The notes beneath the pieces are model-generated. The model saw only the letters and a list, made by a program, of their open reading frames with translations. It ran no database searches and was not told where the DNA came from. This document shows positions 750 through 18,132 of a stretch of DNA of 27,857 nucleotides, one piece after another. The position numbers and the translations under genes are program-made. Positions within the stretch are counted from its first letter, which is position 1. Each line of letters starts with the position of its first letter. The DNA lies in the NCBI GenBank assembly GCA_023132105.1, contig JAGLYS010000191.1, positions 1-27,857 on the forward strand, in the 5' to 3' direction. This DNA is from a candidate division WOR-3 bacterium (lineage in GTDB: Bacteria > Hydrothermota > 32-111 > QNBC01).

Positions 750-1961
750 TTACATAATATGCTGAATCATCTGGAATTGAGGCATATACATAGCTATAAC
801 AATATAACCTACGGTAATACCCATAACAATCATAATTATAGGTTCGAGAGCAGTAGTAAGATTGCTTACAGCAGTATCCACTTCTTCATCATAAAAATCC
901 GCAACCCTGTTTAACATATCATCAAGCTGTCCTGTTTTTTCCCCTATTCTGATCATTTGAGTAACCATTGGAGGAAAAAGATTACTTTTTTCCAGTGGCT
1001 CCGAAATCGATTCACCCTCCTTTATACTGTTCTTTGCATCTAAAATCGCATCTTCAAGTATCTTGTTTCCCGATGTATTCGCAGTTACCGTAAGAGCATC
1101 GATTATCGGAACACCCGAAGATTGTAAGGTGGCAAGTGTTCTTGTAAATCTTGCAATTGCTTGCTTAAGCATAAGATCTCCAAACACAGGATATTTTAGA
1201 GCCATTCTGTCAAAGAAATATAATCCCGGTTTTGTCTTCTTCGCGAATCTTATCCCCTGCCAGATCCCTACTCCAATAAGGATAAGCAACCACCAAAAAT
1301 TTTGAATAAATTTACTAAGCATTAATACCGATTTGGTTATCGCCGGAAGTTCAGCTCCGAACCCCTTAAATAATTGCTCGAATATAGGCACGACAAAAAG
1401 CATTAAAATTACAATAGCTACAACAAGAACAATACCTATTACAAGAGGATATATCATTGCACCCTTTATCTTTGCTTTTAGAGCCATATCCTTTTCAAGA
1501 TAAGTGGCTAATCTTGGTAAAGTCGTATCAAGCGCACCACCTTTTTCTCCGGCCTTTACCATATTAACATACAATTCTCCGAATACATTCTTATGATGTG
1601 CCATTGCCTCTCCGAGTTGAGAACCGCCTTCCATATCGCTGATAATACCTGTTAACAAATTTTTCATCCCCTTGGTTGTCACCTGTTTTTTCTGAATTTT
1701 CAATCCCTCCATCATATTAAGTCCTGCGGATAACATTGTAGAGAATTGCCTTGTGAATAATGCCAAATCTCTCATTGTTACTTTTGGCTTTCCAAATGAT
1801 ATTTCACCTGAAAAAAAGCTTTTGGGTTTTTCTTTCAGCGAAAGAGGAATCAAATCCATTGCTCTAACTTTTATAGATGCTTCGGTTTCGTTAACTGCCT
1901 CTATTTCCCCGGAATTAATTTGCCCGTCTCTTGTTCTGGCTTTCCATACATAAGTAGTCAT
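750..1961 (-). CDS. pilC: Type IV pilus inner-membrane platform protein PilC (T2SS GspF family)
   Basis: Motifs FTRQFSTMLSAGL, LYVNMVKAGEKGGAL, KIKGAMIYP, QMIRIGEKTGQLDDML and LEPIIMIVMG; follows pilT. Confidence 0.95.
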   Translation of the reverse strand: MTTYVWKARTRDGQINSGEIEAVNETEASIKVRAMDLIPLSLKEKPKSFFSGEISFGKPKVTMRDLALFTRQFSTMLSAGLNMMEGLKIQKKQVTTKGMKNLLTGIISDMEGGSQLGEAMAHHKNVFGELYVNMVKAGEKGGALDTTLPRLATYLEKDMALKAKIKGAMIYPLVIGIVLVVAIVILMLFVVPIFEQLFKGFGAELPAITKSVLMLSKFIQNFWWLLILIGVGIWQGIRFAKKTKPGLYFFDRMALKYPVFGDLMLKQAIARFTRTLATLQSSGVPIIDALTVTANTSGNKILEDAILDAKNSIKEGESISEPLEKSNLFPPMVTQMIRIGEKTGQLDDMLNRVADFYDEEVDTAVSNLTTALEPIIMIVMGITVGYIVIAMYMPQFQMIQHIM

Positions 1962-1974
1962 TATGACCCCCTTC

Positions 1975-3093
1975 CTATGCTCTGGAATGATCGGATATCA
2001 TATGTTCAAGTTCTTCAACATTTCTTGAAAATGTTAATGCATTTTCAAGTGATATCTGTCTTGTAGTATAAAGATCATATAGTGATTGATTCAATGTTTG
2101 CATACCAAATTTCCTTCCTGCCTGAATTAAGCTATATATCTGATGTATTTTGTCATCTCTTATCAAAGCTTTTATAGCTGGTGTTGCCGTCATAATCTCA
2201 ACAGCCAATACTCGTCCTCCTCTTATTTTCGGTATTAATGATTGTGTTACTACTGCAATTAAAACAAATGCCAATTGTGCTCTTACCTGAGATTGCCTAT
2301 TCGCCGGATGTGCATCGACTATACGGGTAATTGCCTCGGCAGCTGAATTAGTATGCAATGTTGCGAATGTTAAATGTCCTGTTTCTGCAATAGTAAGTGC
2401 GGCATCGATTGTCTCCAGATCTCTCATCTCTCCTATCAATACAATATCAGGATCCTGTCTCAATACATATTTAAGAGCATTATTGAAACTTTTTGTGTCG
2501 CTTCCAACCTGTCTTTGATTAACAATGCACTTCTTGTGTCTATATAAATATTCTATAGGATCTTCCACTGTAACGATATGAGAGCGTCTATCCCCATTCA
2601 ACTTGTCAATCATAGTAGCCAGTGTTGTCGATTTACCACTCCCGGTAGGTCCTGTTACCAGTACTAAACCCTTTGGTGTTTTGCATAAATCATCGATGAC
2701 TGCAGGCAAGCCCAATTCTTTAAATGATCTAATTTCATATGGGATAACTCTTATTGCCATTGCGACAGCTCCTCTCTGCATAAAAACATTTCCTCTGAAT
2801 CGAGAAAGTTTTGGAATTCCAAATGACAAATCAAGTTCATGTTCGATTTCAAAATGCTTTTTTTGCTGATCATTAAGCACACTATATGCAAGTTTCTTTG
2901 TAAGCTCCGCAGTCATTCTTGGATAATTAGAAGCAGATAAAAGATCCCCGTCAATTCTAAACATAGGATATGAACCTGTCGTAATATGTAAATCTGATCC
3001 ACCTCTTGCAATAAGCTCGGATAATAAGTTATTTATTGTTAACTTATCCTCTTCCTTTTCTGAAATATTATAATTAGAATCATCTACACCCAT
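1975..3093 (-). CDS. pilT: Type IV pilus retraction ATPase PilT
   Basis: GSDLHIT, Walker A GPTGSGKSTT, EDPIE, LRQDPD/GEMRD, TGHLTFATLHT, AIRNLIRE-like AIKALIRDDK and GMQTL; SD AGGAGG upstream. Confidence 0.95.
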   Translation of the reverse strand: MGVDDSNYNISEKEEDKLTINNLLSELIARGGSDLHITTGSYPMFRIDGDLLSASNYPRMTAELTKKLAYSVLNDQQKKHFEIEHELDLSFGIPKLSRFRGNVFMQRGAVAMAIRVIPYEIRSFKELGLPAVIDDLCKTPKGLVLVTGPTGSGKSTTLATMIDKLNGDRRSHIVTVEDPIEYLYRHKKCIVNQRQVGSDTKSFNNALKYVLRQDPDIVLIGEMRDLETIDAALTIAETGHLTFATLHTNSAAEAITRIVDAHPANRQSQVRAQLAFVLIAVVTQSLIPKIRGGRVLAVEIMTATPAIKALIRDDKIHQIYSLIQAGRKFGMQTLNQSLYDLYTTRQISLENALTFSRNVEELEHMISDHSRA

Positions 3094-3107
3094 TATTCCT
3101 CCTATAA

Positions 3108-4841
3108 TTATGATTCTTCTATGCCTGTTTCTCTTATTATTTCTTCAACCGTTGTTAACCCATTTGAAATTTTCACTAATCCATCTTCTTTTAATGTTTT
3201 AAAACCGCTTTTCTTCGCTTCTTTTTTAATATCTTCGGTAGGGGCACTTTTTAAAATCAATTCTCTCATTTTTGCATCTATTTCCAATACTTCTGTAATA
3301 GCTACTCTTCCTTTATAGCCCGTACCTCCGCAAACACCACAACCCGTTCCTTTGTAGATAGGTTTATCCTTAAATACTTCAGGATCTATATTTGCTTCTT
3401 TTAATAAATCTTTGTCAATTTTTACCTCCGCCTTACAATTAGAACAAATTCTTCTTACAAGTCTTTGTGCCTGTATAAGGTTAAGTGCTGCTGCCAATAA
3501 GAACGGTTGGATCCCCATATCGGCTAATCTGTTTATCGTACTCGGAGCATCATTGGTATGTATCGTACTAAGTACAAGATGCCCTGTTAATGCAGCTCTA
3601 ATAGCTGTTTGAACAGTTTCCGAATCACGAATTTCTCCAACCATTACAATATCAGGTCCCTGTCGCAAAAACGCTTTCATCGCTTCGGCAAAAGTAAATC
3701 CTATTTCCGGATTTACCTGAACTTGATTAATCCCATATAAATTATACTCCACAGGGTCCTCTGCTGTCAATATCTGTACATCAGGTGTATTTAATCTACT
3801 CATTGCAGAGTAAAGTGTTGTTGATTTACCACTTCCAGTAGGTCCTGTTACCAGTACTATGCCATAAGGTTGCCCGATTGCATTATTAAATTTCTTCAGA
3901 TTATCAGGTTCGAAACCAAGGGATGTCATATCGAGCATGAGACTCGATTGGTCAAGAATACGAAGGACGATTTTTTCACCATTTATAACAGGAATAGAAG
4001 ATACTCGCAAATCTATAGGATTTTTATCAACACTTACCCTAATTCTTCCGTCTTGTGTATGTCTTCTATCGGTAATGTCAAGTGCAGCCATCGTTTTTAT
4101 TCTTGTAATTATAGAGTATTTTTTTGTTGAATCAGGTTTTAAAACCTCTCTTAAAACACCATCGATTCTATATCTAATCCTAAATAAATTTTCATATATT
4201 TCAACATGAATATCACTTGCACCTTTTCTAACGGCATCGGCAATCATAAAGTTAACATAATTAACAATAGGTTTACTATTGGAATCGATTCTGCCAATGT
4301 CAACATCCAATTCGGAAGATATTAATTGCAAATCACCCTCTTCGAACCCCTCTCCAAGAAGATCATCTCCGATATCAATATCCTCTTCATCTATTGTCTG
4401 GATATCCGTTACTATCTCTTCATAATAATCCATTATAGCTTGTTCAATATCATCAGCAGTTGCAATTACGGGATTAACCTGACATCCTGTGGCGAATTTT
4501 ACTTCTTCAATAGCATCTATGTCTTCAGGATTAGCCATAGCCAGTGTTAGAACCTTTCCAATCTTCTTGATTGGGAATATTTGGTGTCTATATACTAATT
4601 CCTTAGGTAATATTTTTAAAATATTGCCATCAACAACAATTGCTCTAAGGTCAACAGATGCAATATGAAACTGATTACTTAGAAAATCCAAAAGCTCCGA
4701 TCTCGTTATAAAACCAAGCCCTGCAAGGATCCCGCCTAATTTCCTACCTGTTTCCTCCTGAATTTCAAGAGATTTTTTTAGTTGTTCCTCATTTATTAAT
4801 CCTGCTTTTAACAACAACAAACCAATTTTTGCCTTTTTCAT
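3108..4841 (-). CDS. pilB: Type IV pilus extension ATPase PilB, downstream paralog
   Basis: MshEN-like N-terminus, ASDIHVE, QDGRI, GPTGSGKSTT, TAEDPVEY, GEIRD, TGHLVLSTIHTN, Zn motifs CSNC and CGVC, GYKGR. The start overlaps the upstream stop (TAATG at 4843-4839). Confidence 0.92.
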   Translation of the reverse strand: MKKAKIGLLLLKAGLINEEQLKKSLEIQEETGRKLGGILAGLGFITRSELLDFLSNQFHIASVDLRAIVVDGNILKILPKELVYRHQIFPIKKIGKVLTLAMANPEDIDAIEEVKFATGCQVNPVIATADDIEQAIMDYYEEIVTDIQTIDEEDIDIGDDLLGEGFEEGDLQLISSELDVDIGRIDSNSKPIVNYVNFMIADAVRKGASDIHVEIYENLFRIRYRIDGVLREVLKPDSTKKYSIITRIKTMAALDITDRRHTQDGRIRVSVDKNPIDLRVSSIPVINGEKIVLRILDQSSLMLDMTSLGFEPDNLKKFNNAIGQPYGIVLVTGPTGSGKSTTLYSAMSRLNTPDVQILTAEDPVEYNLYGINQVQVNPEIGFTFAEAMKAFLRQGPDIVMVGEIRDSETVQTAIRAALTGHLVLSTIHTNDAPSTINRLADMGIQPFLLAAALNLIQAQRLVRRICSNCKAEVKIDKDLLKEANIDPEVFKDKPIYKGTGCGVCGGTGYKGRVAITEVLEIDAKMRELILKSAPTEDIKKEAKKSGFKTLKEDGLVKISNGLTTVEEIIRETGIEES

Positions 4842-6544
4842 TATCTTGTGGTTGTTTCCTTCAAAACATTTTCCAAATCGGTAACGCCTTCTTTCAGCAA
4901 ATCAATCGCAGCATCCCTGAGAGTAATCATCCCCTCCTTAATAGCTAATTCGCTTAACTCAGCTGTTGATATTCTACTAAGTATCCCATGTCTAATTTTC
5001 GGTGTAACACTAAGCATTTCAAATGCCCCCACCATTCCTTTATAACCGGTATTCATACACTCTTTGCATCCGGATCCTTTATATAGTTTTGAATTTTTCA
5101 ATAGATTAGGGGCAATCATCGCTGATTTTAAAATGCTTACATCCGGCTCAACTTCATACCTGCAATTCTTACATACTTTCTTCATAAGCCGTTGCGATAT
5201 AATGAGATTTAATGTCGAAGCAACAAGAAAAGGTTCAACACCCATATTTACAATTCTCGTTATAGTTGAGGAAGCATTATTCGTATGCATTGTACTTAAG
5301 ACAAGATGACCCGTTAATGATGCTCTAATTGCTATTTCCGCTGTTTCCTTATCACGAATTTCTCCGACCATTATTACATTCGGATCCTGTCTTAAATAAG
5401 CTCTTAGAGCTTTGGCAAATGTCAATCCAATTGTTTCGTTTACCTGTAACTGATTAATGCCTTCTATTGTATACTCTACCGGGTCTTCTGCTGTTGTGAT
5501 ATTTATTCCAATATCATTTATTTCATTTAACATTGCATAAAGAGTTGTTGTTTTACCTGATCCTGTAGGACCCGTGACAAGAATTATACCATGAGGATTA
5601 TGAATATTTTTTCTGGTAATTTTTATCATACTTTTACTAAAACCCAACTTACTTAAATCAAATGAAACCGCTTGTCTATCAAGTATACGGACAGCTACTT
5701 TTTCACCATACATTGTCGGGACTACCGAAACACGAAAATCAATAGGTCTTCCCTTGAAATTCAAACGAATTCTCCCATCCTGAGGTCTTCTTTTTTCCGT
5801 GATATCCATTACTGATAATATTTTAATCCTCTGCACAACACCTTTATGTAAACTTTTTCTCGGTTTATCAATTTCATGCAAAATACCATCTATCCTATAC
5901 CTTATTCTCATTTCTTTTTCATAAGGTTCGATATGTATGTCAGCAGCTTTCTTATCAATTGCAGTCATTAAAATTTTATTAACAAGTTTAACCACAGGAG
6001 CGGATTCACTTGCAGCAGTTAATTCGAATTCATTTTCTTCTTCACCTTCTTCAATAACCTGAACATCCTCCACCCCGATATCAATATCATCTTCATTAGA
6101 AATTTGAGCAATTTGACTTGCACTCTTATAATAAACATTGACTTTTTCTTCAAGATCCGATTCGATACCGACAAATGGTTCGATTTCAAAACTCGTAGTG
6201 AATTTTAAATTATCTATCAAACTATAATTTAGCGGATCCAACATTGCTACACTAAGAATATTACCGCTCCTTCTTATAGGTATAACAATATATTTAATTG
6301 CAATATCGGGAGGAACCAAATTTAATACTGCATCATCTATATCAGCGGTTGTAATATCAATAAATTTTATATTCATTACTTTGCTCAGATATCTACCTAA
6401 TGTCTTTCTGTCGGCATACCCCAAATTTAGAAGTATACTTGCAAGCATGCCTCCTTTCTCTTTCTGAATCTGAAGAGCTTCATCAATTTGCCCTTTGGTG
6501 ACCAGGCCTTTATCAACTAATAATTCTCCTAATCTTTTAGTCAT
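4841..6544 (-). CDS. pilB: Type IV pilus extension ATPase PilB, upstream paralog (start revised to 6544, MTKRLGELL)
   Basis: RLGELLVDKGLV MshEN motif, AADIHIEP, QDGRI, GPTGSGKTTT, TAEDPVEY, GEIRD, TGHLVLSTMHTN, CKNC and CKEC. The ORF-track TTG start at 6586 coincides with the -35 box. Confidence 0.92.
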   Translation of the reverse strand: MTKRLGELLVDKGLVTKGQIDEALQIQKEKGGMLASILLNLGYADRKTLGRYLSKVMNIKFIDITTADIDDAVLNLVPPDIAIKYIVIPIRRSGNILSVAMLDPLNYSLIDNLKFTTSFEIEPFVGIESDLEEKVNVYYKSASQIAQISNEDDIDIGVEDVQVIEEGEEENEFELTAASESAPVVKLVNKILMTAIDKKAADIHIEPYEKEMRIRYRIDGILHEIDKPRKSLHKGVVQRIKILSVMDITEKRRPQDGRIRLNFKGRPIDFRVSVVPTMYGEKVAVRILDRQAVSFDLSKLGFSKSMIKITRKNIHNPHGIILVTGPTGSGKTTTLYAMLNEINDIGINITTAEDPVEYTIEGINQLQVNETIGLTFAKALRAYLRQDPNVIMVGEIRDKETAEIAIRASLTGHLVLSTMHTNNASSTITRIVNMGVEPFLVASTLNLIISQRLMKKVCKNCRYEVEPDVSILKSAMIAPNLLKNSKLYKGSGCKECMNTGYKGMVGAFEMLSVTPKIRHGILSRISTAELSELAIKEGMITLRDAAIDLLKEGVTDLENVLKETTTR

Positions 6545-6557
6545 AATCTTACTTTTA

Positions 6558-6586
6558 ATTTTAACAGAATTAAAAATCACTGTCAA
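6558..6586 (-). promoter_or_regulatory. Sigma70-type promoter of the pil operon
   Basis: Minus strand TTGACA (6586-6581), 17 nt spacer, TAAAAT (6563-6558); ATG follows 13 nt later. Confidence 0.7.
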
Positions 6587-7242: not shown

Positions 7243-8058
7243 ATGAAAACATTTATTGAATTCACAAAAATATCTGCTCTTGGGAATGATTTTATTTTAA
7301 TCAATGATATAAATAACACGATCAAAAAATATTTGAATTCATCAATGATTTACAATTTATGTTCATTTCATACAGGAATTGGAGCGGATGGATTAATAAT
7401 TATTTCGCCTGACAGTGAGTATGATTTCAGAATGTTCTATTTCAATTCCGATGGGAATGAAGCTATGATGTGTGGTAACGGGGCTAGATCTGCAGCTTAT
7501 TTCGCTTATCTTGAACATATTTCATCGGCATCAGGCAGATTCAGAGCATCCGATGGTTTACATCAATTCACTATAAGCGATAGTGTTATTAATGTAAGTT
7601 TGAATGTAACTGATTCCCGCTCCATTATAGACAAAGAAATAGAGAATAAAAAGGTATATTTTATAAATACCGGAGTACCACACGGTATATTATTTGTAAA
7701 AGATATTAAAAACATTGAAGTGGATATAATTGGAAAAAAATTAAGAGATTATAAAGGTTTTGATAAAAAGGGTGCAAATATCAATTTTGTGCAGATTATA
7801 GACAAACATAACATATTAATCAGAACATTTGAAAGAGGTATCGAAGGTGAAACACTTTCCTGCGGAACCGGCTCAACCGCTGCTGCAATTGTATCATACT
7901 GTAAATCCTTTACAAATCCACCAATAAATGCTATAAATAAATCAAATGAAATTCTAAAGATAGACTTTAAATATATTAACAATGATGTGAAGGATGTAAC
8001 GCTAGAGGGTAATGTAAAAGTAACATTTAAAGGAATTTTTGATTTATATGAATACTAA
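7243..8058 (+). CDS. dapF: Diaminopimelate epimerase
   Basis: ALGNDF, GIGADG, FNSDG, MCGNGAR, NTGVPH, GANINF, RTFERG and TLSCGTG; both catalytic Cys are present. Confidence 0.95.
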   Translation: MKTFIEFTKISALGNDFILINDINNTIKKYLNSSMIYNLCSFHTGIGADGLIIISPDSEYDFRMFYFNSDGNEAMMCGNGARSAAYFAYLEHISSASGRFRASDGLHQFTISDSVINVSLNVTDSRSIIDKEIENKKVYFINTGVPHGILFVKDIKNIEVDIIGKKLRDYKGFDKKGANINFVQIIDKHNILIRTFERGIEGETLSCGTGSTAAAIVSYCKSFTNPPINAINKSNEILKIDFKYINNDVKDVTLEGNVKVTFKGIFDLYEY

Positions 8059-10153
8059 AATAAACACCTATGTCATATTTCTTTTAATTATATTTATATC
8101 TTTCCCCTTATTCTCCGACAAATTGTTAATCGATGATTATATTAAATCGACAATATTAAAGGAAAAGGCATTTTATGCGGATTCTTCATTTCTTGAAGTT
8201 TTAGAAGGAGAAAAATATTTTTCTCTTATTGATTCGTCATTAGTAGAATATAATATAAGAAATTTTATTTACCAAAATCACGAAAACCCATTTGGATATT
8301 ATATACTTGGTGAATTCTTTAGAATTTCAGGATCAAACAAATTATTTAGTATATATTATGATTCATCTCTGATGCTTGCTGCTAAATCTTACGGGTCAAA
8401 TTTAATCCTTTATAGATATTTTAAAATTAGGGGAAATTCATTATATGCATTAAAAACACTGAATTCCATATATGATGTAAGTTTGAATAAGGGGATAATT
8501 GCACATCCACTTTTATGTGCTTATTTTAAGTATAAATCAATTGAAAGTATTAGATCAGGCAATTTGATAGAAGCAACACATTATGATAATATCGCTATAA
8601 AATTAAATTCATCCGATTTGGAATCATATTCGATTCAAAGTATTATTCATCAAAAAACAGACCCACTAAATAGTCTTAAAGACATAGCTCTGTTTATAAT
8701 AAATGCTTTTTCTGATTTCAGAAATAAAATCTTTGTATATTCATCCCTTATAAGAATTGCCTATTTTGGGTTATTTTATGCATCATTTTTCTTTCTTACC
8801 GTTCTTTATATTACAAATTTGGATTTTCTCACAAAAAAGATATCCAAACTAATAAAAAGTGAAAACAGATTTTTCTATGGAGTCCTATATATATTATTAT
8901 TAATTTCTCCTTTCATATGGTTCGATAATATTGTTTACATTTATATTGTTTTTCTTGTTTATAATACATATATCTGTCTTGCAAAAAGAAAAAGAGAATT
9001 TGTTTTTATCGCTTTAGTCCTGATTATAATGATAATACCGACAATAGGAGATTCTATTAATTTTAAAATATATTCTCCTGATTCCGAGATTAGCGCGGTA
9101 CTAAATTTAAATGTTAATCCGGGCAACAATGATGCAAGAGAATATATCAATAATTTGAGGGGCAGAGACAAGAGTAATACATTTATATACAATTATCTTT
9201 TAGGATTTACATTTAAGAAAAATGGTATTTTAGACTCTGCTAAAACATATTATAAAACAGCATTTAAATATAAGCCATCAGATGTTTCTCTGATAAATAA
9301 TATTGGAAATATTTTCTTTTTAGAAAAACAGTATGACAGCGCGTTTATATATTATAATAAAGGAATTAAAATCGATTCGAATAGTGCATCACTACATTAT
9401 AATTTAGCTCAATATTATCAAATGAAATTACAGTTAAATAAATCATCCGAAGAAATTGAAAAAGCATATTCATTGGATTTTGACAAAATTAGCAATTTTT
9501 CAAAAAACAGCACAAATCATTATAACAGAATTCTAATAGATGACAATATTCCAGAATACTATATGAACAAATTGCTTAGTAAGTATGTCTTTAAAGATAT
9601 TCACTTATATAACTATTTCTTAAAAGTTAATGTTTTACCGATTGCTGTAATTGCTCTCTTATATATTATTATACTTTCTATTCTGGCAAATAAACAAAAG
9701 AAATTATTCCCGTATAAAAGATGTTCTGTATGTGGTCATTGGGAATATGAAAAAGAACTGGATTATTTCGAAAATACCCAATTATGCAGAGAATGCAATT
9801 CAAGGATAGTAAATGTATCGAATGATACGGTAAAAGCTAAAATAATCGAAAGTTTAAAGATTAGATACTTTATCCGAAAAAAAACAATCGGATTTTTTAT
9901 AAATCTTATTATTCCAGGCGGTGGTCTAATCTATTTGGGAAAACAGGGTAGAGGATTACTATATCTGTTTCAATTTATTATTTATTTTATGATTGCAACA
10001 AGTTCGAATTATCTAATAACGAATATATTTGCCACCCCGCTTATGATAAAGGGGATTATTTATTATGTGTTTATCGGATTAACTGTTTTTATCTATGTTC
10101 TTGTACAATTAATTTATTTATCATTAAAAGAATCGGAGTTCCATCATGCTTAA
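8048..10153 (+). CDS. Multi-pass membrane protein with TPR repeats and a CxxC...CxxC putative zinc ribbon
   Basis: Signal-like N-terminus, several hydrophobic segments, TPR-like repeats (e.g. AKTYYKTAFKYKPSDVSLINNIGNIFF, ASLHYNLAQYY), CSVC...CREC, and C-terminal NLIIPGGGLIYLGK plus TM helices. Start moved to the ATG at 8048. Confidence 0.7.
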   Translation: MNTKINTYVIFLLIIFISFPLFSDKLLIDDYIKSTILKEKAFYADSSFLEVLEGEKYFSLIDSSLVEYNIRNFIYQNHENPFGYYILGEFFRISGSNKLFSIYYDSSLMLAAKSYGSNLILYRYFKIRGNSLYALKTLNSIYDVSLNKGIIAHPLLCAYFKYKSIESIRSGNLIEATHYDNIAIKLNSSDLESYSIQSIIHQKTDPLNSLKDIALFIINAFSDFRNKIFVYSSLIRIAYFGLFYASFFFLTVLYITNLDFLTKKISKLIKSENRFFYGVLYILLLISPFIWFDNIVYIYIVFLVYNTYICLAKRKREFVFIALVLIIMIIPTIGDSINFKIYSPDSEISAVLNLNVNPGNNDAREYINNLRGRDKSNTFIYNYLLGFTFKKNGILDSAKTYYKTAFKYKPSDVSLINNIGNIFFLEKQYDSAFIYYNKGIKIDSNSASLHYNLAQYYQMKLQLNKSSEEIEKAYSLDFDKISNFSKNSTNHYNRILIDDNIPEYYMNKLLSKYVFKDIHLYNYFLKVNVLPIAVIALLYIIILSILANKQKKLFPYKRCSVCGHWEYEKELDYFENTQLCRECNSRIVNVSNDTVKAKIIESLKIRYFIRKKTIGFFINLIIPGGGLIYLGKQGRGLLYLFQFIIYFMIATSSNYLITNIFATPLMIKGIIYYVFIGLTVFIYVLVQLIYLSLKESEFHHA

Positions 10154-11183
10154 AGGAAGTTTAAGAGAATTTAAAACACCTGACATTCTTCAGCTTATAG
10201 CCTCACAAGCAAAAACAGGTGTTTTGACAATTGAACACTTCAATGAAACAATTTCAATAGGATTTAAAAAGGGATTTATAGTAGCTGCTCTCAAAAACAA
10301 AAACAATGAAGCTGAAAAAATAAATTCATACATCTTAGCTTCTCAAAAAATAGATAGAGAAACATATGATAATATAATCGAAGAACACAAAGTAAGTGGT
10401 ATAGACATATATGAGCTTTTAATAAAAGAAAAAATATTATCTGAAAATGACATAAGAGACATTATACAATTTAAAATTCAGGAAATAATGGACAATTCAA
10501 TGCAATGGCAAGAAGGTACATACAACTTCCAACCTCATGTTGCCATTTACACCGATAGTAAAATAAAGGTTTCTATCAATACTCAGGGATTAATTCTTGA
10601 AAGTATTCGTCGTATCGATGAATGGCCTCGGATAAATAAGGAATTCCCTGATTCAAGGATCGTATTAAAAAAGGTAATCTATACAATCAACACTGATGAG
10701 GTAGGTCCGGAAGAAAATATTATTTTCAATCTAATAGATAACAACCGTTCTATCGAGGATTTGATAAGATTAAGCGGTTTAGGTAGGTTTAAAACATTTA
10801 GTGCAATCTATAACCTTTATTTTATGAATTTAATTGACAAATTACCAAGGATAAAGAGAAAAAATAAAGCAAAATTATCTTTTGATTTTTCAATTTTACT
10901 TAATATCGTAAAAGCATCGATTATTATCATTATCGTTATTCTTGTTGATCTTGGTATCAGGTCTATAACATCATCTTCAATAAAAAGTATCTCCTTCTAC
11001 GATTCTCCTCATACCTATTCCTATAGAAAAAGAATTATTGAAAATTCCTTGAAGATATATTTCATCGATCATGAAGAATATCCCAATAATTTAGAAAAGC
11101 TCGCTAAATCCAATCTTCTTAACAAAACAATCATCAAAGATTTTATTTACAAGTGTAATAAAACAGATTATATATTGGAATAA
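10146..11183 (+). CDS. DUF4388 (PatA_N-like) domain protein with one TM helix and a short pilin-like C-terminal domain
   Basis: N-terminal LKGSLREFKTPDILQLIASQAKTGVL, WQEGTYNF and GLILESIRRIDEW are the DUF4388 pattern; TM near residues 250-270; C-terminal SLKIYFIDHEEYPNNLEKL. Confidence 0.75.
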   Translation: MLKGSLREFKTPDILQLIASQAKTGVLTIEHFNETISIGFKKGFIVAALKNKNNEAEKINSYILASQKIDRETYDNIIEEHKVSGIDIYELLIKEKILSENDIRDIIQFKIQEIMDNSMQWQEGTYNFQPHVAIYTDSKIKVSINTQGLILESIRRIDEWPRINKEFPDSRIVLKKVIYTINTDEVGPEENIIFNLIDNNRSIEDLIRLSGLGRFKTFSAIYNLYFMNLIDKLPRIKRKNKAKLSFDFSILLNIVKASIIIIIVILVDLGIRSITSSSIKSISFYDSPHTYSYRKRIIENSLKIYFIDHEEYPNNLEKLAKSNLLNKTIIKDFIYKCNKTDYILE

Positions 11184-12523: not shown

Positions 12524-12551
12524 TTGAATTTTTAAATAAAACAAGTATAAT
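12524..12551 (+). promoter_or_regulatory. Sigma70 promoter, probably giving a leaderless mRNA for queD
   Basis: TTGAAT (12524-12529), 16 nt spacer, TATAAT (12546-12551), 6 nt, ATG (12558); no SD. Confidence 0.65.
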
Positions 12552-12557
12552 GCAAAT

Positions 12558-12926
12558 ATGTTTATTATTAGAGTTGAAACACACTTTTCCGGAGCTCATT
12601 TTCTTAATGGATATATTGGTAAATGCTCGGATATGCATGGGCACAATTGGAAGGCTATTGTTGAGGTAAAAGGTAATAAGTTAAATAAATCCGGTATGCT
12701 TATTGATTTTAAAGAATTAAAGAAAATCGCAAATGAAATTTCAGACAAATTTGACCATAAAGTTTTAAATGAAATCGATTACTTCAACGATAAAAATCCT
12801 ACCGCTGAAAATATTGCAATATACTTTTCATTTGAACTTAAAAAAAGATTACCTGAATTGGAAATTAATCTTATACAGGTGTTTGAAACAGACGATTATG
12901 CTGCAACATATATTCCAGATAAATGA
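12558..12926 (+). CDS. queD: 6-carboxy-5,6,7,8-tetrahydropterin synthase
   Basis: FSGAHFL, CSDMHGHNW, DFKELK, DHKVLNE, NPTAENIA and VFET. Confidence 0.93.
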   Translation: MFIIRVETHFSGAHFLNGYIGKCSDMHGHNWKAIVEVKGNKLNKSGMLIDFKELKKIANEISDKFDHKVLNEIDYFNDKNPTAENIAIYFSFELKKRLPELEINLIQVFETDDYAATYIPDK

Positions 12927-13548
12927 AATTTTCGAATCGATTGAAGGAGAAACAACATTTTCAGGTTTTCCATCACTTTTTATCAGATTTACAGGATGTA
13001 ATCTGAGATGTAATTATTGCGATACGAAGTATGCATATAGTGAAGGTAAATTTTATTCAACCGAGCAAATAATAGAATTGATTAAAGGATCTAATAAAAA
13101 ATATATCATAATTACAGGTGGAGAACCGTTGATTCAAAAAGGGATAGAACATTTAATTATGGAAATTGGAAAGACAGATAAAATAATTATAATTGAAACA
13201 AATGGTTCAATGCCCATTGATAATATTCTTGGCAATTCGACAATAGTTATGATGGATATCAAAACCCCATCAAGCAATATGGCTAAGTTTAATAATTTGG
13301 AAAATATTAGAAAACTTCGTTCCTTTGACGAAGTAAAATTCACAATCTTAAACTATGATGATTTTATTTGGAGTGTCGATATTGTTAGAAATATAATAGA
13401 TAATAGATGTAAGGTAAATTTTTCGCCTGTTAACAATATACTCAAACCCTCACTCCTGGCAAAATGGATATTGGATTCAGATGAAAATATCAGATTGAAT
13501 CTCCAATTACACAAGATTATTTGGAAAAACAAAGAGCGAGGAATATGA
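12898..13548 (+). CDS. queE: 7-carboxy-7-deazaguanine synthase (radical SAM); start revised to 12898
   Basis: INEIFESIEGE, FIRFTGCNLRCNYCDTKY, ITGGEPL, ETNGS and LNLQLHK; operon context. Confidence 0.92.
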   Translation: MLQHIFQINEIFESIEGETTFSGFPSLFIRFTGCNLRCNYCDTKYAYSEGKFYSTEQIIELIKGSNKKYIIITGGEPLIQKGIEHLIMEIGKTDKIIIIETNGSMPIDNILGNSTIVMMDIKTPSSNMAKFNNLENIRKLRSFDEVKFTILNYDDFIWSVDIVRNIIDNRCKVNFSPVNNILKPSLLAKWILDSDENIRLNLQLHKIIWKNKERGI

Positions 13549-14315
13549 AAGATATACAAAACGAAAACGATTTACGCAAAATAGCCATAAACAAAGTTGG
13601 TGTTACAAGTGTAAAATATCCGATAACATTATTGGATAGAGATAGTTCATCACAACATACAATATGTGATATTGACCTCTGTGTTGACCTGCCTCATGAT
13701 TTCAGAGGTGCTCATATGAGCAGGTTTATTGAAATAATTCACAATTATAAGTCCTCAATAAACATCGATGCCATTCCGGATATACTTGAGAATGTTAGAA
13801 ATTCACTCAATGCGGAATCAGCACATATAAAAATCACATTCCCCTATTTTATGACAAAAAGTGCCCCCATTTCACATATTTCTTCATTAATGCCATATAA
13901 AGTTACATTTATTGGCACAAAAAACAGTAATATAACTGATATAGTTATAAATGTTGAAATACCCGTCACAACATTGTGTCCCTGTTCAAAAGAGATAAGC
14001 AATCACGGAGCTCATAATCAACGATCATTCCTTTCAATATCCGTTAGAACTAAAAAATTCATGTGGATTGAGGAATTGATAGAGATAGCTGAAAGTTGTG
14101 CAAGTTCTCAGATTTATCCTCTTTTAAAAAGAGAAGATGAAAAATATGTAACAGAACACGCATATAATAATCCGAGATTTGCAGAAGACATTGTAAGAGA
14201 AGCCGTATTGAAATTGAAAAAAAATGGAAAAATCACCTGGCTAAAGGTAGAATCATTAAATCTTGAAAGTATACACCTTCACAATACCTATGCTTGTGTT
14301 GAAATGGAAATATGA
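13545..14315 (+). CDS. folE2: GTP cyclohydrolase type IB; start revised to 13545
   Basis: INKVGV, GAHMSRF, TTLCPCSKEIS, GAHNQRS, NPRFAED and ESIHLHN; ATGA overlap with queE. Confidence 0.92.
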   Translation: MKDIQNENDLRKIAINKVGVTSVKYPITLLDRDSSSQHTICDIDLCVDLPHDFRGAHMSRFIEIIHNYKSSINIDAIPDILENVRNSLNAESAHIKITFPYFMTKSAPISHISSLMPYKVTFIGTKNSNITDIVINVEIPVTTLCPCSKEISNHGAHNQRSFLSISVRTKKFMWIEELIEIAESCASSQIYPLLKREDEKYVTEHAYNNPRFAEDIVREAVLKLKKNGKITWLKVESLNLESIHLHNTYACVEMEI

Positions 14316-15298
14316 ATAGAGTTATCGGTATAACATCTACGATACCTTCTGAAGTAATATATGCTGCCGGTTATAAATTATGTGATTTAAATAACCTCTA
14401 TATAAAATCCAGATTACCTATGGATTATTATGAAAAAGCTGAAATTGCAGGATTTCCCGGAACTTATTGTGGCTGGATAAAAGGTCTTTACAGTGCAGCT
14501 TTAGATAATGATATAAGAACAGTTATTGCTGTTACCGAAGGGGATTGTAGTAATACTCATGCTTTAATGGAACTATACACTTATGAGAATGTAAACACTA
14601 TACCTTTTGCATATCCGTTTATTCATGATAGAGAACATATATCTTTCGAAATTAGCAGTTTAATGAAAAGATTTAATGTTGTTAAAGTTGATTTAGATAT
14701 AGTACGAGAAAAATTCTATAAAATAAGGCAATTGCTTCATAAATTTGATGAAAATACATATTCCGAATCTAAAATATCAGGTAAGGAAAATCATATTTGG
14801 CTTATTTCTTCTAGCGATTTTAATGGAAATCCCGATAAATTTTATACTAATTTAAAAACAAGAATAAATGAAATAGACAAAAAAACCTCCATTTATAATG
14901 ATTACATAAGACTGGGATATGCGGGTGTTCCTCCTATATTCACCGATTTTTATGAGACAGTTGAGAATCTTGGAGGACATATCGTCTTCAATGAATTGCA
15001 AAGACAGTTTGCTATGCCATCATACCAAAAGGATATAGTGAGTCAATATCTTGATTATACATATCCGTACAGTATATTTTTAAGGATAGAAGATATTAAG
15101 ACAGAAATTAAAAAGAGGAAAATAAAAGGTCTTATTCACTATGTTCAATCATTCTGTTATAGAACCCTCGAAGATGTTATTTTACGAAAAGAATTAAATA
15201 TTCCTATCTTGACAATAGAAGGAGACAAACCAGAAAAAACAGGCGTTAGAACCAGAATTAGAATTGAAGCATTCATTGAAATGTTGAGGAAATTATGA
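14312..15298 (+). CDS. 2-hydroxyacyl-CoA dehydratase (HGD-D) family Fe-S protein, single subunit; substrate unknown
   Basis: IPSEVIYAAG N-terminus, Cys motifs TYCGW (C53), GDCSN (C79) and SFCYR (C282), IPILTIEGD, and a C-terminal TRIRIEAFIEML signature; adjacent to an activase. Confidence 0.85.
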   Translation: MNRVIGITSTIPSEVIYAAGYKLCDLNNLYIKSRLPMDYYEKAEIAGFPGTYCGWIKGLYSAALDNDIRTVIAVTEGDCSNTHALMELYTYENVNTIPFAYPFIHDREHISFEISSLMKRFNVVKVDLDIVREKFYKIRQLLHKFDENTYSESKISGKENHIWLISSSDFNGNPDKFYTNLKTRINEIDKKTSIYNDYIRLGYAGVPPIFTDFYETVENLGGHIVFNELQRQFAMPSYQKDIVSQYLDYTYPYSIFLRIEDIKTEIKKRKIKGLIHYVQSFCYRTLEDVILRKELNIPILTIEGDKPEKTGVRTRIRIEAFIEMLRKL

Positions 15299-16044
15299 AA
15301 GCTGGAATTGACATAGGCAGTAGAAGTATAAAAATCTATTTTGAAATTAACGGAGATCCTATTAGAAAGAAAATTGATACAATATCCTTTTTTAAAAACT
15401 ATTTATCTTCGGATAATGATATGTTAAAGATTGAAAATAATGATTTATTCAACGGATATCATCCGGATGAAATAATTGCTACCGGTTATGGAAAACTTGC
15501 AACTAACATTAAAACTACGAAAACAATCTCTGAAATAATAGCCCACGCAGTAGGAGCTATGGAATCTACGGGAGAAAAAAACTTTATTCTCGTTGATATC
15601 GGAGGACAGGATACCAAGGTAATAAAAATATCCGATTGTAATGTTGTTGATTTTCAAATGAATAACAAATGTGCGGCGGGAAGTGGCAGATACATTGAGA
15701 ATATGGCACAAATACTCGGTTTATCGATTAATGATATTTCAAGCAGGGTGAAAAATCCCATAAGAATCGATTCGACATGTACCACATTTGGGGAATCGGA
15801 AGTATTGGGAAAATTCTTTGAAGATAATAGCATTGAAAATATTGCAGCTGGTATTAATGAAGCTGTTGCCAGGAGATTGATTCCTATGATACGGAAATAT
15901 AATAGTAATACTATATTTGTTTCCGGTGGTGTGGCAAATAACAGTGCTGTAATCAGTTTTTTATCTACTGGTTTAAGTTTAGATGTAAAACGAATAGATT
16001 TTCCGGATTTTAACGGTGCATACGGGTGTTATAAATATGAATAA
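15295..16044 (+). CDS. ATP-dependent acyl-CoA dehydratase activase (HgdC/HadI; BadF/BcrA/BcrD ASKHA ATPase with a [4Fe-4S] cluster)
   Basis: GIDIGSRSIK, ATGYG, SEIIAHAVG, VDIGGQDTK, MNNKCAAGSG, STCTTFGESE, SGGVANN and GAYG. Confidence 0.92.
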   Translation: MKAGIDIGSRSIKIYFEINGDPIRKKIDTISFFKNYLSSDNDMLKIENNDLFNGYHPDEIIATGYGKLATNIKTTKTISEIIAHAVGAMESTGEKNFILVDIGGQDTKVIKISDCNVVDFQMNNKCAAGSGRYIENMAQILGLSINDISSRVKNPIRIDSTCTTFGESEVLGKFFEDNSIENIAAGINEAVARRLIPMIRKYNSNTIFVSGGVANNSAVISFLSTGLSLDVKRIDFPDFNGAYGCYKYE

Positions 16045-16717
16045 AAAAGCTGTTGTATTGCTAAGCGGTGGTCTGGATTCAACAACAACATTGGTTTATG
16101 CTTTGAATAAGGGCTATATTGTTTCTGCGATTACATTTGATTATGGTCAAAGACACAATATTGAAATTAAAAAGTCTATTTTAACAACAAAGAAATATAA
16201 TATTAAACATTTAATCTTTCCCATTCCATTGGATTTAATAGGGGGATCTGCTCTTACTGACAATATAGATGTTCCGGAACATAGCCTTGAAAATATTGGT
16301 AATGCTATCCCTATAACATATGTTCCTGCTCGAAATATAATTTTCCTGTCAATTGCTTCGGCATGGGCAGAAGTACAAAATATAGAAAATATATTTATCG
16401 GTGTTAATATGCTTGATTATAGCGGATATCCTGATTGTAGGAACATATTTATCAAATCTATGGAAAAATCTTTAACACTTGGAACAAAATTGGTAGATTT
16501 AAATAGAAAAATCAAGATTCATACACCACTTTCCGATTTAAAAAAATTTGAAATTATTCGACTCGGCATTGATCTTGATGTTGACTATTCGCTCACTTCA
16601 AGCTGTTATAATCCTGATAAGAAAGGAAGAGCTTGTGGAAAATGTGATAGTTGTAAACTTAGATTGCAAGGATTTAAAGCAATAGATATTTCTGATCCTG
16701 TTCCATATATAATATAA
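16037..16717 (+). CDS. queC: 7-cyano-7-deazaguanine synthase; start revised to 16037
   Basis: VLLSGGLDS, FDYGQRH, TYVPARN, GYPDCR, SCY and CGKCDSCKLR. Confidence 0.96.
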   Translation: MNKKAVVLLSGGLDSTTTLVYALNKGYIVSAITFDYGQRHNIEIKKSILTTKKYNIKHLIFPIPLDLIGGSALTDNIDVPEHSLENIGNAIPITYVPARNIIFLSIASAWAEVQNIENIFIGVNMLDYSGYPDCRNIFIKSMEKSLTLGTKLVDLNRKIKIHTPLSDLKKFEIIRLGIDLDVDYSLTSSCYNPDKKGRACGKCDSCKLRLQGFKAIDISDPVPYII

Positions 16718-16739
16718 CATATTTTTTATTCTGCTTATA

Positions 16740-16775
16740 AAGAAAGACAGGATATCAATTTATCCTGTCTTTCTT
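16740..16775. terminator. Probable bidirectional intrinsic terminator
   Basis: Perfect 15-bp inverted repeat AAGAAAGACAGGATA-tcaatt-TATCCTGTCTTTCTT between the convergent queC and oxidoreductase genes. Confidence 0.8.
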
Positions 16776-16785
16776 CTATATGAAA

Positions 16786-18132
16786 TTATAGTTTAGCAAT
16801 ATTCTGTGCAGCAGTAATTATTGGATAGATTGTTGGTGCAGCAGTTAACTTCGGATGAGTAGCAATTTGAAGCATTGCTATTTCATTTGCAGTCATTCTT
16901 TTCTGAATAGCAACAGCTATCACATTAATTAATTCGCCTACTGAGATCCCACCTCTTAACTGTCCACCAAGAAGAACTTTTGTATTTTTACTAAATATAA
17001 GTTTAACAACAATTTTTTCTGTTCCCTTAATAGCTCCCGGATGTTTATCAGGTGCTTCGGAAGTTGCAACAACAATATCGAATTTTTCATCCTTTGCAGT
17101 ATTTTCGGTAAGACCTGCTGATCCCAATGCTAACCTGTTTATATATGTTGAAAATGCTGCAATCGTTCCGGGATTTGTTCTTATTGCTTTAATACCGTAT
17201 AGATTTGCTCCGGCGATTCTTGCTTCTGCTGTTGCTGTCGAAGCAAGCATTACGGGTGAATGATCCCTTGTAAAAAAATCTCTTTTCTCGGCACAATCAC
17301 CTACAGCAAATATATTTCTATCTGTTGTTCTCATATAATCATTAACCCAAATACCACCACCTCTTCCAATTCGAAGATCACATTTTTTAATACATTCTAT
17401 ATTCTGTATTGCTCCAATACCGAGAATTACCATGTCAGCCGGCAATTCAGTGCCATCTTCCAATTTTACTGCTGTGGCTTTATCTGCTCCAACAATTTCA
17501 ACAACTTTACTATTCAAATGAAGTTTAATACCTTTTTCTATTAATTTATCTGCAGCTGCTTCACAAAATTCATCATCAAAGGCATTAAGTAAAACATTAG
17601 GAAGCATTTCAACTATTGCAACATTTTTATCTTCAAGAGAGGCAACCTCATCGGCCATTTCTATACCAATAAATCCACCACCAATGACAACAATATTTTT
17701 TACAGCTTTTGCCTTCTCTACCATTTTCTTGAGGTAGATTAAATCCTTTTTAATCGGATATACCCCGATTTTATCAATCCCCTCTATTGGTGGTACAATG
17801 GGTTTCGAACCGGTAGCGATTACGAGTTTTTCATATTGATATTCATTTCCGGATTTTGTTTTCACAATCCTATCTATTTTATCTACATCTATTGCCTCAT
17901 CAATAACTACTTTAATGCCCTTTGATTCAATACCGGTTGTTTTTAATGCATTTTTATCCGGGTCATCAAGTGTAGCAAACATATAAGGAATACCACATGG
18001 TATTACACCGGCATCTACGCTTTTCATAACTGTAATATCTTTCTCCGGATAATATCCTTTAGCTGTCATAGCTGTAATAATCCCTGCCGGACCTCCACCA
18101 AGTATTAAAATATCTGTTTTATTCATCTTCAT
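16786..18132 (-). CDS. FAD-dependent pyridine nucleotide-disulfide oxidoreductase (CoA-disulfide reductase/NADH oxidase family)
   Basis: ILGGGPAG, redox Cys in PCGIPY, ATGS, VIGGGFIG and IFAVGDCA; SD AGGAGG. Confidence 0.88.
   Translation of the reverse strand: MKMNKTDILILGGGPAGIITAMTAKGYYPEKDITVMKSVDAGVIPCGIPYMFATLDDPDKNALKTTGIESKGIKVVIDEAIDVDKIDRIVKTKSGNEYQYEKLVIATGSKPIVPPIEGIDKIGVYPIKKDLIYLKKMVEKAKAVKNIVVIGGGFIGIEMADEVASLEDKNVAIVEMLPNVLLNAFDDEFCEAAADKLIEKGIKLHLNSKVVEIVGADKATAVKLEDGTELPADMVILGIGAIQNIECIKKCDLRIGRGGGIWVNDYMRTTDRNIFAVGDCAEKRDFFTRDHSPVMLASTATAEARIAGANLYGIKAIRTNPGTIAAFSTYINRLALGSAGLTENTAKDEKFDIVVATSEAPDKHPGAIKGTEKIVVKLIFSKNTKVLLGGQLRGGISVGELINVIAVAIQKRMTANEIAMLQIATHPKLTAAPTIYPIITAAQNIAKL

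What the first reader, a model, noticed from the sequence alone, without database searches (positions are those of the whole stretch)
12558..16717. preQ0 (7-deazaguanine) operon with an embedded ATP-dependent Fe-S dehydratase/activase pair: candidate new step in Q/preQ0 chemistry
Seen: queD-queE-folE2-X-Y-queC, with every junction overlapping (12898/12926; ATGA at 13545, 14312 and 15295; 16037/16044), one promoter in front and one terminator behind. X is an HGD-D family protein and Y its ASKHA activase. Established: FolE2, QueD, QueE and QueC suffice for GTP to preQ0 and need no such pair. HgdC/HadI-type activases use ATP to push one low-potential electron into their partner. No queF, queG, queH, tgt or dpdA is in the window. 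Inference: X/Y work in 7-deazaguanine metabolism. Two testable options: (a) ATP-driven reduction of the preQ0 nitrile to preQ1, replacing QueF; (b) epoxyqueuosine deoxygenation, replacing QueG/QueH, by analogy to IspG/IspH 3-Cys [4Fe-4S] chemistry. Lesser options are supplying electrons to QueE or making a new preQ0 derivative. I know of no described role for this family in this pathway, but cannot check the literature.
Basis: partly seen in the sequence, partly recalled or inferred. Interest (0 to 1): 0.9.

Follow-up and report, generated by a model that had tools for sequence, protein, structure and literature searches.

The report
Likely iron-sulfur replacement for QueF
Two extra genes inside this operon for the tRNA-queuosine precursor preQ0, an iron-sulfur protein and its ATP-driven activator, occur in just those bacteria that make preQ0 and queuosine but lack QueF, so they are probably an undescribed second kind of nitrile reductase.

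Summary
Window 12558-16717 (+) is one overlapping six-gene operon, queD-queE-folE2-X-Y-queC, with a promoter-like site in front and a strong hairpin behind. X (328 aa) has the HGD-D fold and three invariant cysteines. Y is a HadI/HgdC-type activase.

The window's genome has tgt, queA and queH but no queF. QueF was found in 0 of 44 other X-carrying genomes, while 43 have QueA and 41 have QueH or QueG.

In two phylum-wide samples (352 genomes) X and QueF never co-occur. Of 114 QueC-positive genomes, 79 have QueF, 32 have X, none has both, and 3 have neither; those 3 are 62-78% complete.

X-Y sits next to que genes in at least four phyla, once directly behind the preQ0/preQ1 transporter gene, and occurs as X-Y fusion proteins.

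Best reading (about 0.75): X/Y replaces QueF and reduces preQ0 to preQ1 with ATP-driven low-potential electrons.

No paper in the held library describes this; a November 2026 review calls QueF the only known nitrile reductase family. No experiment supports it yet. This scan reached the same reading earlier on at least six other genomes.

The parts
12524..12551 (+). Promoter-like site (TTGAAT, 16 nt, TATAAT) 6 nt upstream of the queD start. It leaves almost no leader, so there is no room for a riboswitch.
   Evidence: 10 of 12 matches; two searches found no preQ1 riboswitch in the window.
12558..12926 (+). queD, 6-carboxytetrahydropterin synthase (122 aa).
   Evidence: PF01242 E 3.5e-38; TIGR03367 100 bits, cut-off 89.
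12898..13548 (+). queE, radical-SAM 7-carboxy-7-deazaguanine synthase (216 aa from the ATG at 12898; overlaps queD by 29 nt).
   Evidence: PF04055; best NCBIfam hits TIGR04349 and TIGR03963 (QueE), below their strict cut-offs.
13545..14315 (+). folE2, GTP cyclohydrolase IB (256 aa; ATGA overlap with queE).
   Evidence: PF02649 E 4.9e-91; NF010200 265 bits, cut-off 215.
14312..15298 (+). X: single-subunit HGD-D-fold Fe-S protein (328 aa) with invariant C53, C79 and C282. Proposed catalytic component of an ATP-dependent preQ0 reductase.
   Evidence: phyletic pattern.
15295..16044 (+). Y: HadI/HgdC-type ATP-dependent activase (249 aa, ASKHA fold). The two cluster-ligand cysteine motifs align with those of HadI.
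   Evidence: 4EHT E 7.5e-35; TIGR00241 above cut-off. X-Y fusion proteins.
16037..16717 (+). queC, 7-cyano-7-deazaguanine (preQ0) synthase (226 aa; 8-nt overlap with Y).
   Evidence: PF06508 E 1.2e-73; TIGR00364 199 bits, cut-off 150.
16736..16780 (.). 15-bp hairpin between the convergent queC and a CoA-disulfide-reductase-like gene (16786-18132, minus strand). Likely a bidirectional terminator.
   Evidence: -23.3 kcal/mol, z = -6.97, 0 of 200 shuffles fold as well.

Best explanation
X and Y together do the job of QueF: they convert preQ0 (7-cyano-7-deazaguanine, made by FolE2, QueD, QueE and QueC from the same operon) into preQ1 (7-aminomethyl-7-deazaguanine). Tgt then inserts preQ1 into tRNA, and QueA and QueH (both encoded elsewhere in this genome) finish queuosine.

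Shown here by computation: the operon structure; the HGD-D fold of X with three invariant cysteines; the identity of Y as an activase; the mutual exclusion of X and QueF; and the clustering of X-Y with que genes and with the preQ0/preQ1 transporter gene.

Inferred mechanism, by analogy with HadBC, DCCP and class I benzoyl-CoA reductase: Y, a homodimer bridged by a [4Fe-4S] cluster, is reduced by ferredoxin or flavodoxin. It uses ATP hydrolysis to push single low-potential electrons into a 3-Cys [4Fe-4S] cluster in X. The nitrile of preQ0 binds at or near the non-cysteine-ligated iron and is reduced in four one-electron/proton steps through an imine to the amine. ATP would therefore be consumed stoichiometrically, as in DCCP and benzoyl-CoA reductase, not catalytically as in the dehydratases.
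For: (1) Own genome (88% complete): Tgt and QueA and QueH are present; QueF and QueG were not found.

(2) 44 other X-carrying genomes from about ten phyla: QueF above cut-off in 0 of 44, QueA in 43 of 44, strong QueC matches in about 37 of 44, QueH in 40 and QueG in 1.

(3) Phylum of G013, 151 genomes: 38 have X, 32 have QueF, overlap 0 (Fisher P = 2.5e-5). The 44 QueC-positive genomes split into 29 with X and 15 with QueF, with none carrying both or neither.

(4) Own phylum, 201 genomes: the 70 QueC-positive genomes split into 64 with QueF, 3 with X (all in the window's family) and 3 with neither. Those 3 are 62-78% complete and belong to a genus in which 13 of 15 genomes have QueF.

(5) X-Y lies next to que genes in the window's family, in Clostridia/Bacillota (L091, L092, and L095 from Caminicella sporogenes), in Actinomycetota (L034, L071, L082) and in Armatimonadota (L055). 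This needs 6 separate gains or losses on the X tree.

(6) In G277 (QueA present, QueC absent) the order is QPTR/YhhQ-X-Y with overlapping junctions. Four of 5 genomes with X but without QueC have QPTR.

(7) X-Y fusion proteins occur in at least 11 of the best 150 representative clusters, one of them seen in independent samples.

(8) The X family is tight: 54% mean column identity, with C53, C79 and C282 invariant. It is a distinct branch 16-22% identical to DCCP, HadBC and BzdN/MbdN.

(9) Outside que operons, X-Y sits among housekeeping genes and never beside CoA-transferase or acyl-CoA genes.
Against: There is no experimental evidence of any kind. Most X loci (about 70 of 80) are not linked to que genes. 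Many genomes are incomplete MAGs. The genome counts are not phylogenetically independent, and no kinship information was available for the second phylum. NADPH suffices for QueF, so it is unclear why ATP-coupled reduction would be needed. Four-electron nitrile reduction has not been shown for any member of this superfamily. No above-threshold preQ1 riboswitch was found upstream of X-Y here; the only hit is a 16-bit one in Caminicella.
Confidence: 0.75

Rival explanations
1. Same net function but a different substrate: X/Y reduce preQ0 after Tgt has inserted it into tRNA (preQ0-tRNA to preQ1-tRNA), not the free base.
For: The phyletic pattern fits this equally well. From general knowledge, bacterial Tgt can insert preQ0.
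Against: X is a compact 328-aa protein with no recognisable RNA-binding domain. Its relatives all act on small molecules. The QPTR-X-Y operon suggests that an imported free base is processed directly.
Confidence: 0.1
2. X/Y make or use another 7-deazaguanine derivative. Examples are a new preQ0-derived base, or reduction of the QueC intermediates CDG or ADG. The absence of QueF would then have a separate cause, such as preQ1 salvage.
For: X-Y is linked to queC, queD and queE. Four of 5 X genomes without QueC have a QPTR transporter that could also import preQ1.
Against: Every QueC-positive genome of the second phylum has either X or QueF. QueA, which needs the aminomethyl group of preQ1, is present in 43 of 44 X genomes. 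No tailoring enzyme for another product is conserved next to X-Y.
Confidence: 0.06
3. X/Y replace the epoxyqueuosine reductase QueG/QueH.
For: By analogy only: 3-Cys [4Fe-4S] reductive chemistry.
Against: The window's genome has QueH. 40 of 44 X genomes have QueH and one has QueG.
Confidence: 0.01
4. X/Y are an ordinary dehydratase or reductase of unrelated metabolism, or an electron supply for QueE. Their exclusion from QueF genomes would then be a by-product of ecology (strict anaerobes) and shared ancestry.
For: Most X loci are not que-linked. All carriers are anaerobes. The genome counts are not corrected for relatedness.
Against: Among QueC-positive genomes in two phyla the split is 79 QueF, 32 X, none with both, and 3 with neither; those 3 are 62-78% complete. 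Que linkage arose repeatedly. There is a transporter-X-Y operon in a genome without QueC. Only one HGD-D subunit is present and there are no CoA genes nearby. If X were unrelated, these Q makers would still lack a preQ0 reductase.
Confidence: 0.06

Closest known systems
QueF (NADPH-dependent 7-cyano-7-deazaguanine reductase, EC 1.7.1.13; T-fold, PF14489)
   Same: The proposed reaction and pathway position are the same (preQ0 to preQ1). X occupies QueF's place in queCDE(F)-type operons, and the two show complementary distribution.
   Different: There is no sequence or fold relationship. QueF uses NADPH and a covalent thioimide on a catalytic cysteine. X has an HGD-D fold with a presumed 3-Cys [4Fe-4S] cluster and needs an ATP-hydrolysing activase. 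It would be oxygen-sensitive and driven by ferredoxin or flavodoxin.
Double-cubane cluster protein DCCP with its ATPase DCCP-R (Carboxydothermus hydrogenoformans; PDB 6ENO, 7YYL, 7YZM)
   Same: It is the best match by sequence and by fold (E 1.8e-15; TM 0.81-0.83). It has a single type of catalytic subunit plus a dedicated activase. By depositor titles and general knowledge, it performs ATP-dependent, electron-consuming reduction of small unsaturated molecules.
   Different: X is about 95 aa shorter and 21% identical. It scores 43 bits against the NF040772 cut-off of 350. It keeps only 3 of the cluster cysteines, so a single [4Fe-4S] is expected and not [8Fe-9S]. The physiological substrate of DCCP is unknown, whereas X has a specific pathway context.
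2-Hydroxyacyl-CoA dehydratases (HadBC/HadI, HgdAB/HgdC; PDB 3O3M, 4EHT, 1HUX)
   Same: The fold of X is the same (TM about 0.8). Y is closest to HadI and HgdC (E 7.5e-35 and 1e-33). These enzymes carry a 3-Cys [4Fe-4S] cluster with an open iron site.
   Different: The dehydratases are alpha-beta heterodimers acting on CoA thioesters. They recycle one electron and sit beside CoA-transferase and dehydrogenase genes. X is a lone subunit with no CoA genes nearby, and its proposed reaction consumes four electrons.
Class I benzoyl-CoA reductases (BzdNOPQ, MbdONPQ; PDB 8S02, 9GAI)
   Same: ATP-coupled, stoichiometric electron transfer to an HGD-D-fold catalytic module. Fold match at TM 0.78-0.83.
   Different: These are four-subunit enzymes with aromatic CoA-ester substrates, 16-18% identical to X.

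Membership tests
HGD-D superfamily (PF06050: dehydratase, BCR and DCCP catalytic subunits) | HGD-D fold and a Pfam match above the gathering score | tested here: met
   PF06050 110 bits against a cut-off of 28. The AF2 model has pLDDT 94.7. Foldseek TM is 0.78-0.83 to 6ENO, 3O3M, 9GAI and 8S02.
2-hydroxyacyl-CoA dehydratase (HgdAB/HadBC type) | Two paralogous HGD-D subunits (alpha and beta) encoded together | tested here: not met
   There is only one HGD-D gene in the operon. tblastn found a single X match per locus across the 80 related loci.
2-hydroxyacyl-CoA dehydratase (HgdAB/HadBC type) | Genomic association with CoA-transferase, 2-hydroxyacid dehydrogenase or acyl-CoA metabolism | tested here: not met
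   No such genes are in the window or among the conserved neighbours in other loci.
Double-cubane cluster protein (DCCP) | Six cysteines ligating an [8Fe-9S] cluster, and a match to NF040772 above cut-off | tested here: not met
   Only C53, C79 and C282 are invariant. They align with three DCCP cysteines, and the other DCCP cysteine positions are not Cys in X. NF040772 scores 43 bits against a cut-off of 350.
Class I benzoyl-CoA reductase | Heterotetramer of two HGD-D-like and two activase-like subunits | tested here: not met
   The operon has one X and one Y. The BCR equivalog models score far below their cut-offs.
HgdC/HadI-type activase (Y) | ASKHA ATPase matching TIGR00241 above cut-off, with the two cysteine motifs that bridge a [4Fe-4S] cluster in the dimer | tested here: met
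   TIGR00241 scores 160 bits against a cut-off of 125. HadI 4EHT matches at E 7.5e-35, with the KCAAG(S/T)G and STCT(T/V)F motifs aligned. Cluster binding itself was not tested.
QueF family | T-fold, PF14489/QueF motif, NADPH-dependent | tested here: not met
   X and Y have no PF14489 match. X is proposed as a functional analogue only, not as a family member.
Functional role: preQ0 reductase (works like QueF) | Present where QueF is missing in genomes that have QueC and QueA, and never together with QueF | tested here: met
Functional role: preQ0 reductase (works like QueF) | Catalyses preQ0 to preQ1 | not testable with these tools
   This needs anaerobic complementation or a biochemical assay.

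The most novel reading that the evidence does not exclude
X/Y is a second, evolutionarily unrelated biological nitrile reductase: an ATP-driven [4Fe-4S] enzyme of the dehydratase/BCR/DCCP superfamily that performs the four-electron reduction of preQ0 to preQ1. It is widespread in strict anaerobes (Deferribacterota, Negativicutes, Clostridia, Cloacimonadota, anammox Planctomycetota and others). It would fill an unrecognised gap in their queuosine pathway and give the first physiological substrate for a DCCP-like reductase.
Probability: 0.7. Interest if true: 0.9.

Novelty: new variant of a known kind. Interest (0 to 1): 0.82.

Why it matters
QueF is described as the only known enzyme family that reduces a nitrile directly to an amine (PMC13740343, November 2026). 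It is assumed in all reconstructions of queuosine synthesis (for example PMC11130926).

If X/Y does this step, three things follow:
- Many anaerobes now scored as lacking de novo queuosine synthesis, or as salvagers, are in fact complete Q makers. Among them is the gut bacterium Mucispirillum schaedleri.
- The ATP-dependent Fe-S reductase superfamily gains a new reaction type, nitrile reduction, and a defined housekeeping substrate.
- Biocatalysis gains a mechanistically different nitrile-reducing scaffold.

The hypothesis is directly testable with existing queF mutants and assays.

Tried and rejected
1. Selenocysteine in X: the '1 TGA' flags are only the stop codons of slightly shorter orthologues. 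The same holds for the TGA flags in QueF of one genus.

2. preQ1 riboswitch as independent support:
- None was found in the window.
- None was found in 45 genomes with RF00522 under strict filters.
- None was found in 14 X loci, nor upstream of the QPTR-X-Y operon.
- The only hit is a sub-threshold preQ1-I-like match (16.4 bits, gathering score 39) upstream of X in Caminicella, L095:5796-5842. This is inconclusive.

3. Conserved neighbours beyond Y: there are none. The neighbours are lineage-specific housekeeping genes such as murI, rph and rdgB.

4. N- or C-terminal extensions of long X homologues: no que-related domains. The long forms are X-Y fusions only.

5. The ESM Atlas gave only generic family names.

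6. The host phylum could not be named, because the handles are anonymous and the L004 record is an 'uncultured bacterium'.

7. Literature searches on preQ0/queuosine with activase, dehydratase or double-cubane, and on missing QueF, found no description of this role.


Full report
**Observation**

Window 12558-16717 (+) holds six genes with overlapping junctions:
- queD, 12558-12926
- queE, 12898-13548
- folE2, 13545-14315
- X, 14312-15298
- Y, 15295-16044
- queC, 16037-16717

A promoter-like TTGAAT-16-TATAAT ends 6 nt before the queD ATG. A 15-bp hairpin (-23.3 kcal/mol, z = -7) follows queC.

The rest of the window is ordinary chromosome: type IV pilus genes, def, dapF, TPR proteins, a sugar-binding protein, a CoA-disulfide-reductase-like gene, a tRNA, mltG, ruvX and efp. 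It contains no queF, queG, queH, tgt or dpdA.

**What X and Y are**

X (328 aa) matches Pfam HGD-D. It reaches only 43 bits on the double-cubane equivalog, whose cut-off is 350.
- An alignment of 50 homologues from many phyla has 54% mean column identity. C53, C79 and C282 are invariant; C24 is not conserved.
- A profile search of the PDB finds DCCP (6ENO/7YYL, E 1.8e-15), then HadC (3O3M_B) and BzdN.
- The AlphaFold model is confident (pLDDT 94.7).
- Foldseek gives TM 0.78-0.83 to DCCP, HadBC, MbdN and BzdN at 16-22% identity.

X is therefore a separate, shorter, single-subunit branch of the ATP-dependent Fe-S dehydratase/reductase superfamily. It has the cysteine set expected for one [4Fe-4S] cluster.

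Y is a typical HadI/HgdC-type activase. TIGR00241 is above cut-off. 4EHT matches at E 7.5e-35 with both cluster-cysteine motifs aligned.

X-Y fusion proteins exist in at least 11 of the best 150 representative clusters. One of them is seen in independent metagenomes. Where Y is not adjacent to X, an activase is encoded elsewhere (5 of 5 genomes).

**The pathway gap**

The window's genome is a MAG of 371 contigs, 88% complete. It has tgt and queA (adjacent) and queH. QueG and QueF were not found. Every step from GTP to queuosine is therefore encoded except preQ0 to preQ1.

**Phyletic test**

1. *Carriers of X.* search for related loci gave 80 X loci (40-92% identity) in Deferribacterota (including Mucispirillum schaedleri and Deferribacter), Negativicutes, Clostridia, Cloacimonadota, Brocadiia and other Planctomycetota, Actinomycetota, Armatimonadota and others. 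In 44 of these genomes:
   - QueF above cut-off: 0 of 44
   - QueA: 43 of 44
   - QueC with strong matches: about 37 of 44
   - QueH: 40 of 44; QueG: 1 of 44

2. *Phylum of G013, 151 genomes.* X is in 38 and QueF in 32, with overlap 0 (Fisher P = 2.5e-5). The 44 QueC-positive genomes split into 29 with X and 15 with QueF. None has both and none has neither.

3. *Own phylum, 201 genomes.* X is in 4, of which three are in the window's own family. QueF is in 99, with no overlap. The 70 QueC-positive genomes split into 64 with QueF, 3 with X and 3 with neither. Those last three are 62-78% complete and belong to a genus where 13 of 15 genomes have QueF.

4. *Within the window's family.* X, Y and queC come and go together. 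G113 (97% complete) lacks X, QueC and QueF but keeps QueA.

These counts are not corrected for relatedness. The exclusion nevertheless recurs in two phyla and across about ten phyla of carriers.

**Gene clustering**

Most X-Y pairs stand alone among housekeeping genes. X-Y lies directly beside que genes in these cases:
- the window's family (L004, L093)
- two genomes of the G013 phylum (L091: X-Y-queD-queE-...-queC; L092: X-Y-queC-queD-queE)
- Caminicella sporogenes (L095: X-Y-queD-queE-queC)
- three Actinomycetota MAGs (L034, L071, L082)
- one Armatimonadota MAG (L055)

On an X tree the linked rows need six changes.

In G277, which has QueA but no QueC, the preQ0/preQ1 transporter gene (Vut_1/QPTR) overlaps the start of X, giving QPTR-X-Y. 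Four of five genomes with X but without QueC carry QPTR. This matches the known preQ0-salvage logic in which the imported base still needs reduction.

**Mechanism (inferred)**

By analogy with its structural relatives, ATP-bound Y would inject low-potential electrons into the 3-Cys cluster of X. preQ0 would bind with its nitrile at or near the open iron site and be reduced by four electrons and four protons to preQ1. Unlike the dehydratases, electrons would be consumed, as in DCCP and benzoyl-CoA reductase.

Two points remain open. It is unknown whether the substrate is free preQ0 or preQ0-tRNA. It is also unexplained why ATP coupling would be needed when NADPH suffices for QueF.

**Alternatives**

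- Replacement of QueG/QueH is refuted.
- Electron supply to QueE does not explain the exclusion from QueF genomes or the transporter-X-Y operon.
- A classical 2-hydroxyacyl-CoA dehydratase is unlikely: there is one subunit and no CoA genes nearby.
- An unrelated function would leave all these Q makers without a preQ0 reductase.

**Literature and earlier notes**

Full-text searches found no paper linking this family to queuosine. [quoted passage not shown]

The scan's own earlier AI notes reached the same reading on at least six other genomes. I had stated my reading before seeing them, and I treat them as leads, not as evidence. Their riboswitch lead could not be reproduced above threshold here.

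**Verdict**

X/Y is most likely (about 0.75) an undescribed ATP-dependent Fe-S preQ0 reductase that replaces QueF in many anaerobes. It is a new functional branch of a known enzyme superfamily. It has not been tested experimentally.

Noticed in passing
L108:3465-5924 (G277:C4): A tight three-gene operon QPTR/YhhQ (Vut_1)-X-Y with overlapping junctions, in a genome that has QueA but no QueC. It looks like a preQ0-salvage version of the module.
   Followed up: partly
P0123, P0128, P0148, P0150, P0152, P0156, P0168, P0188, P0191, P0194, P0196: X-Y fusion proteins of about 590-640 aa, with HGD-D at the N-terminus and the activase at the C-terminus, in many separate 50%-identity clusters. P0156 is seen in independent metagenomes.
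   Followed up: partly
G001-G044: Carriers of X use the Fe-S epoxyqueuosine reductase QueH almost exclusively (40 of 44) and not the B12-dependent QueG (1 of 44). This points to an all-Fe-S, anaerobic version of the late queuosine pathway.
   Followed up: no
L095:5796-5842 (Caminicella sporogenes, upstream of X-Y-queD-queE-queC): A sub-threshold preQ1-I riboswitch-like element (16.4 bits, gathering score 39) with a 5-bp P1 stem and an A-rich tail. It may be a divergent preQ1 riboswitch controlling the X-Y operon.
   Followed up: partly
window 750-6586 (-): A type IV pilus or type II secretion cluster with two tandem MshEN-domain PilB-like ATPases (3108-4841, 4841-6586), a PilT-like ATPase (1975-3093) and PilC (750-1961).
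   Followed up: no
window 12524-12558: The -10 box of the promoter-like site ends 6 nt before the queD ATG, so the operon mRNA may be leaderless or nearly so.
   Followed up: no
own phylum sample: The window's class-mates (family f2, 14 genomes) lack QueC, and all but one lack a QueF match above cut-off. Only part of family f1 carries the whole queD-queE-folE2-X-Y-queC block. This suggests that a complete preQ1 pathway was acquired horizontally by a salvaging lineage.
   Followed up: partly
window 8039-11183 (+): A 704-aa TPR protein overlaps the start of a DUF4388 protein (10146-11183). The function of this pair is unknown.
   Followed up: no
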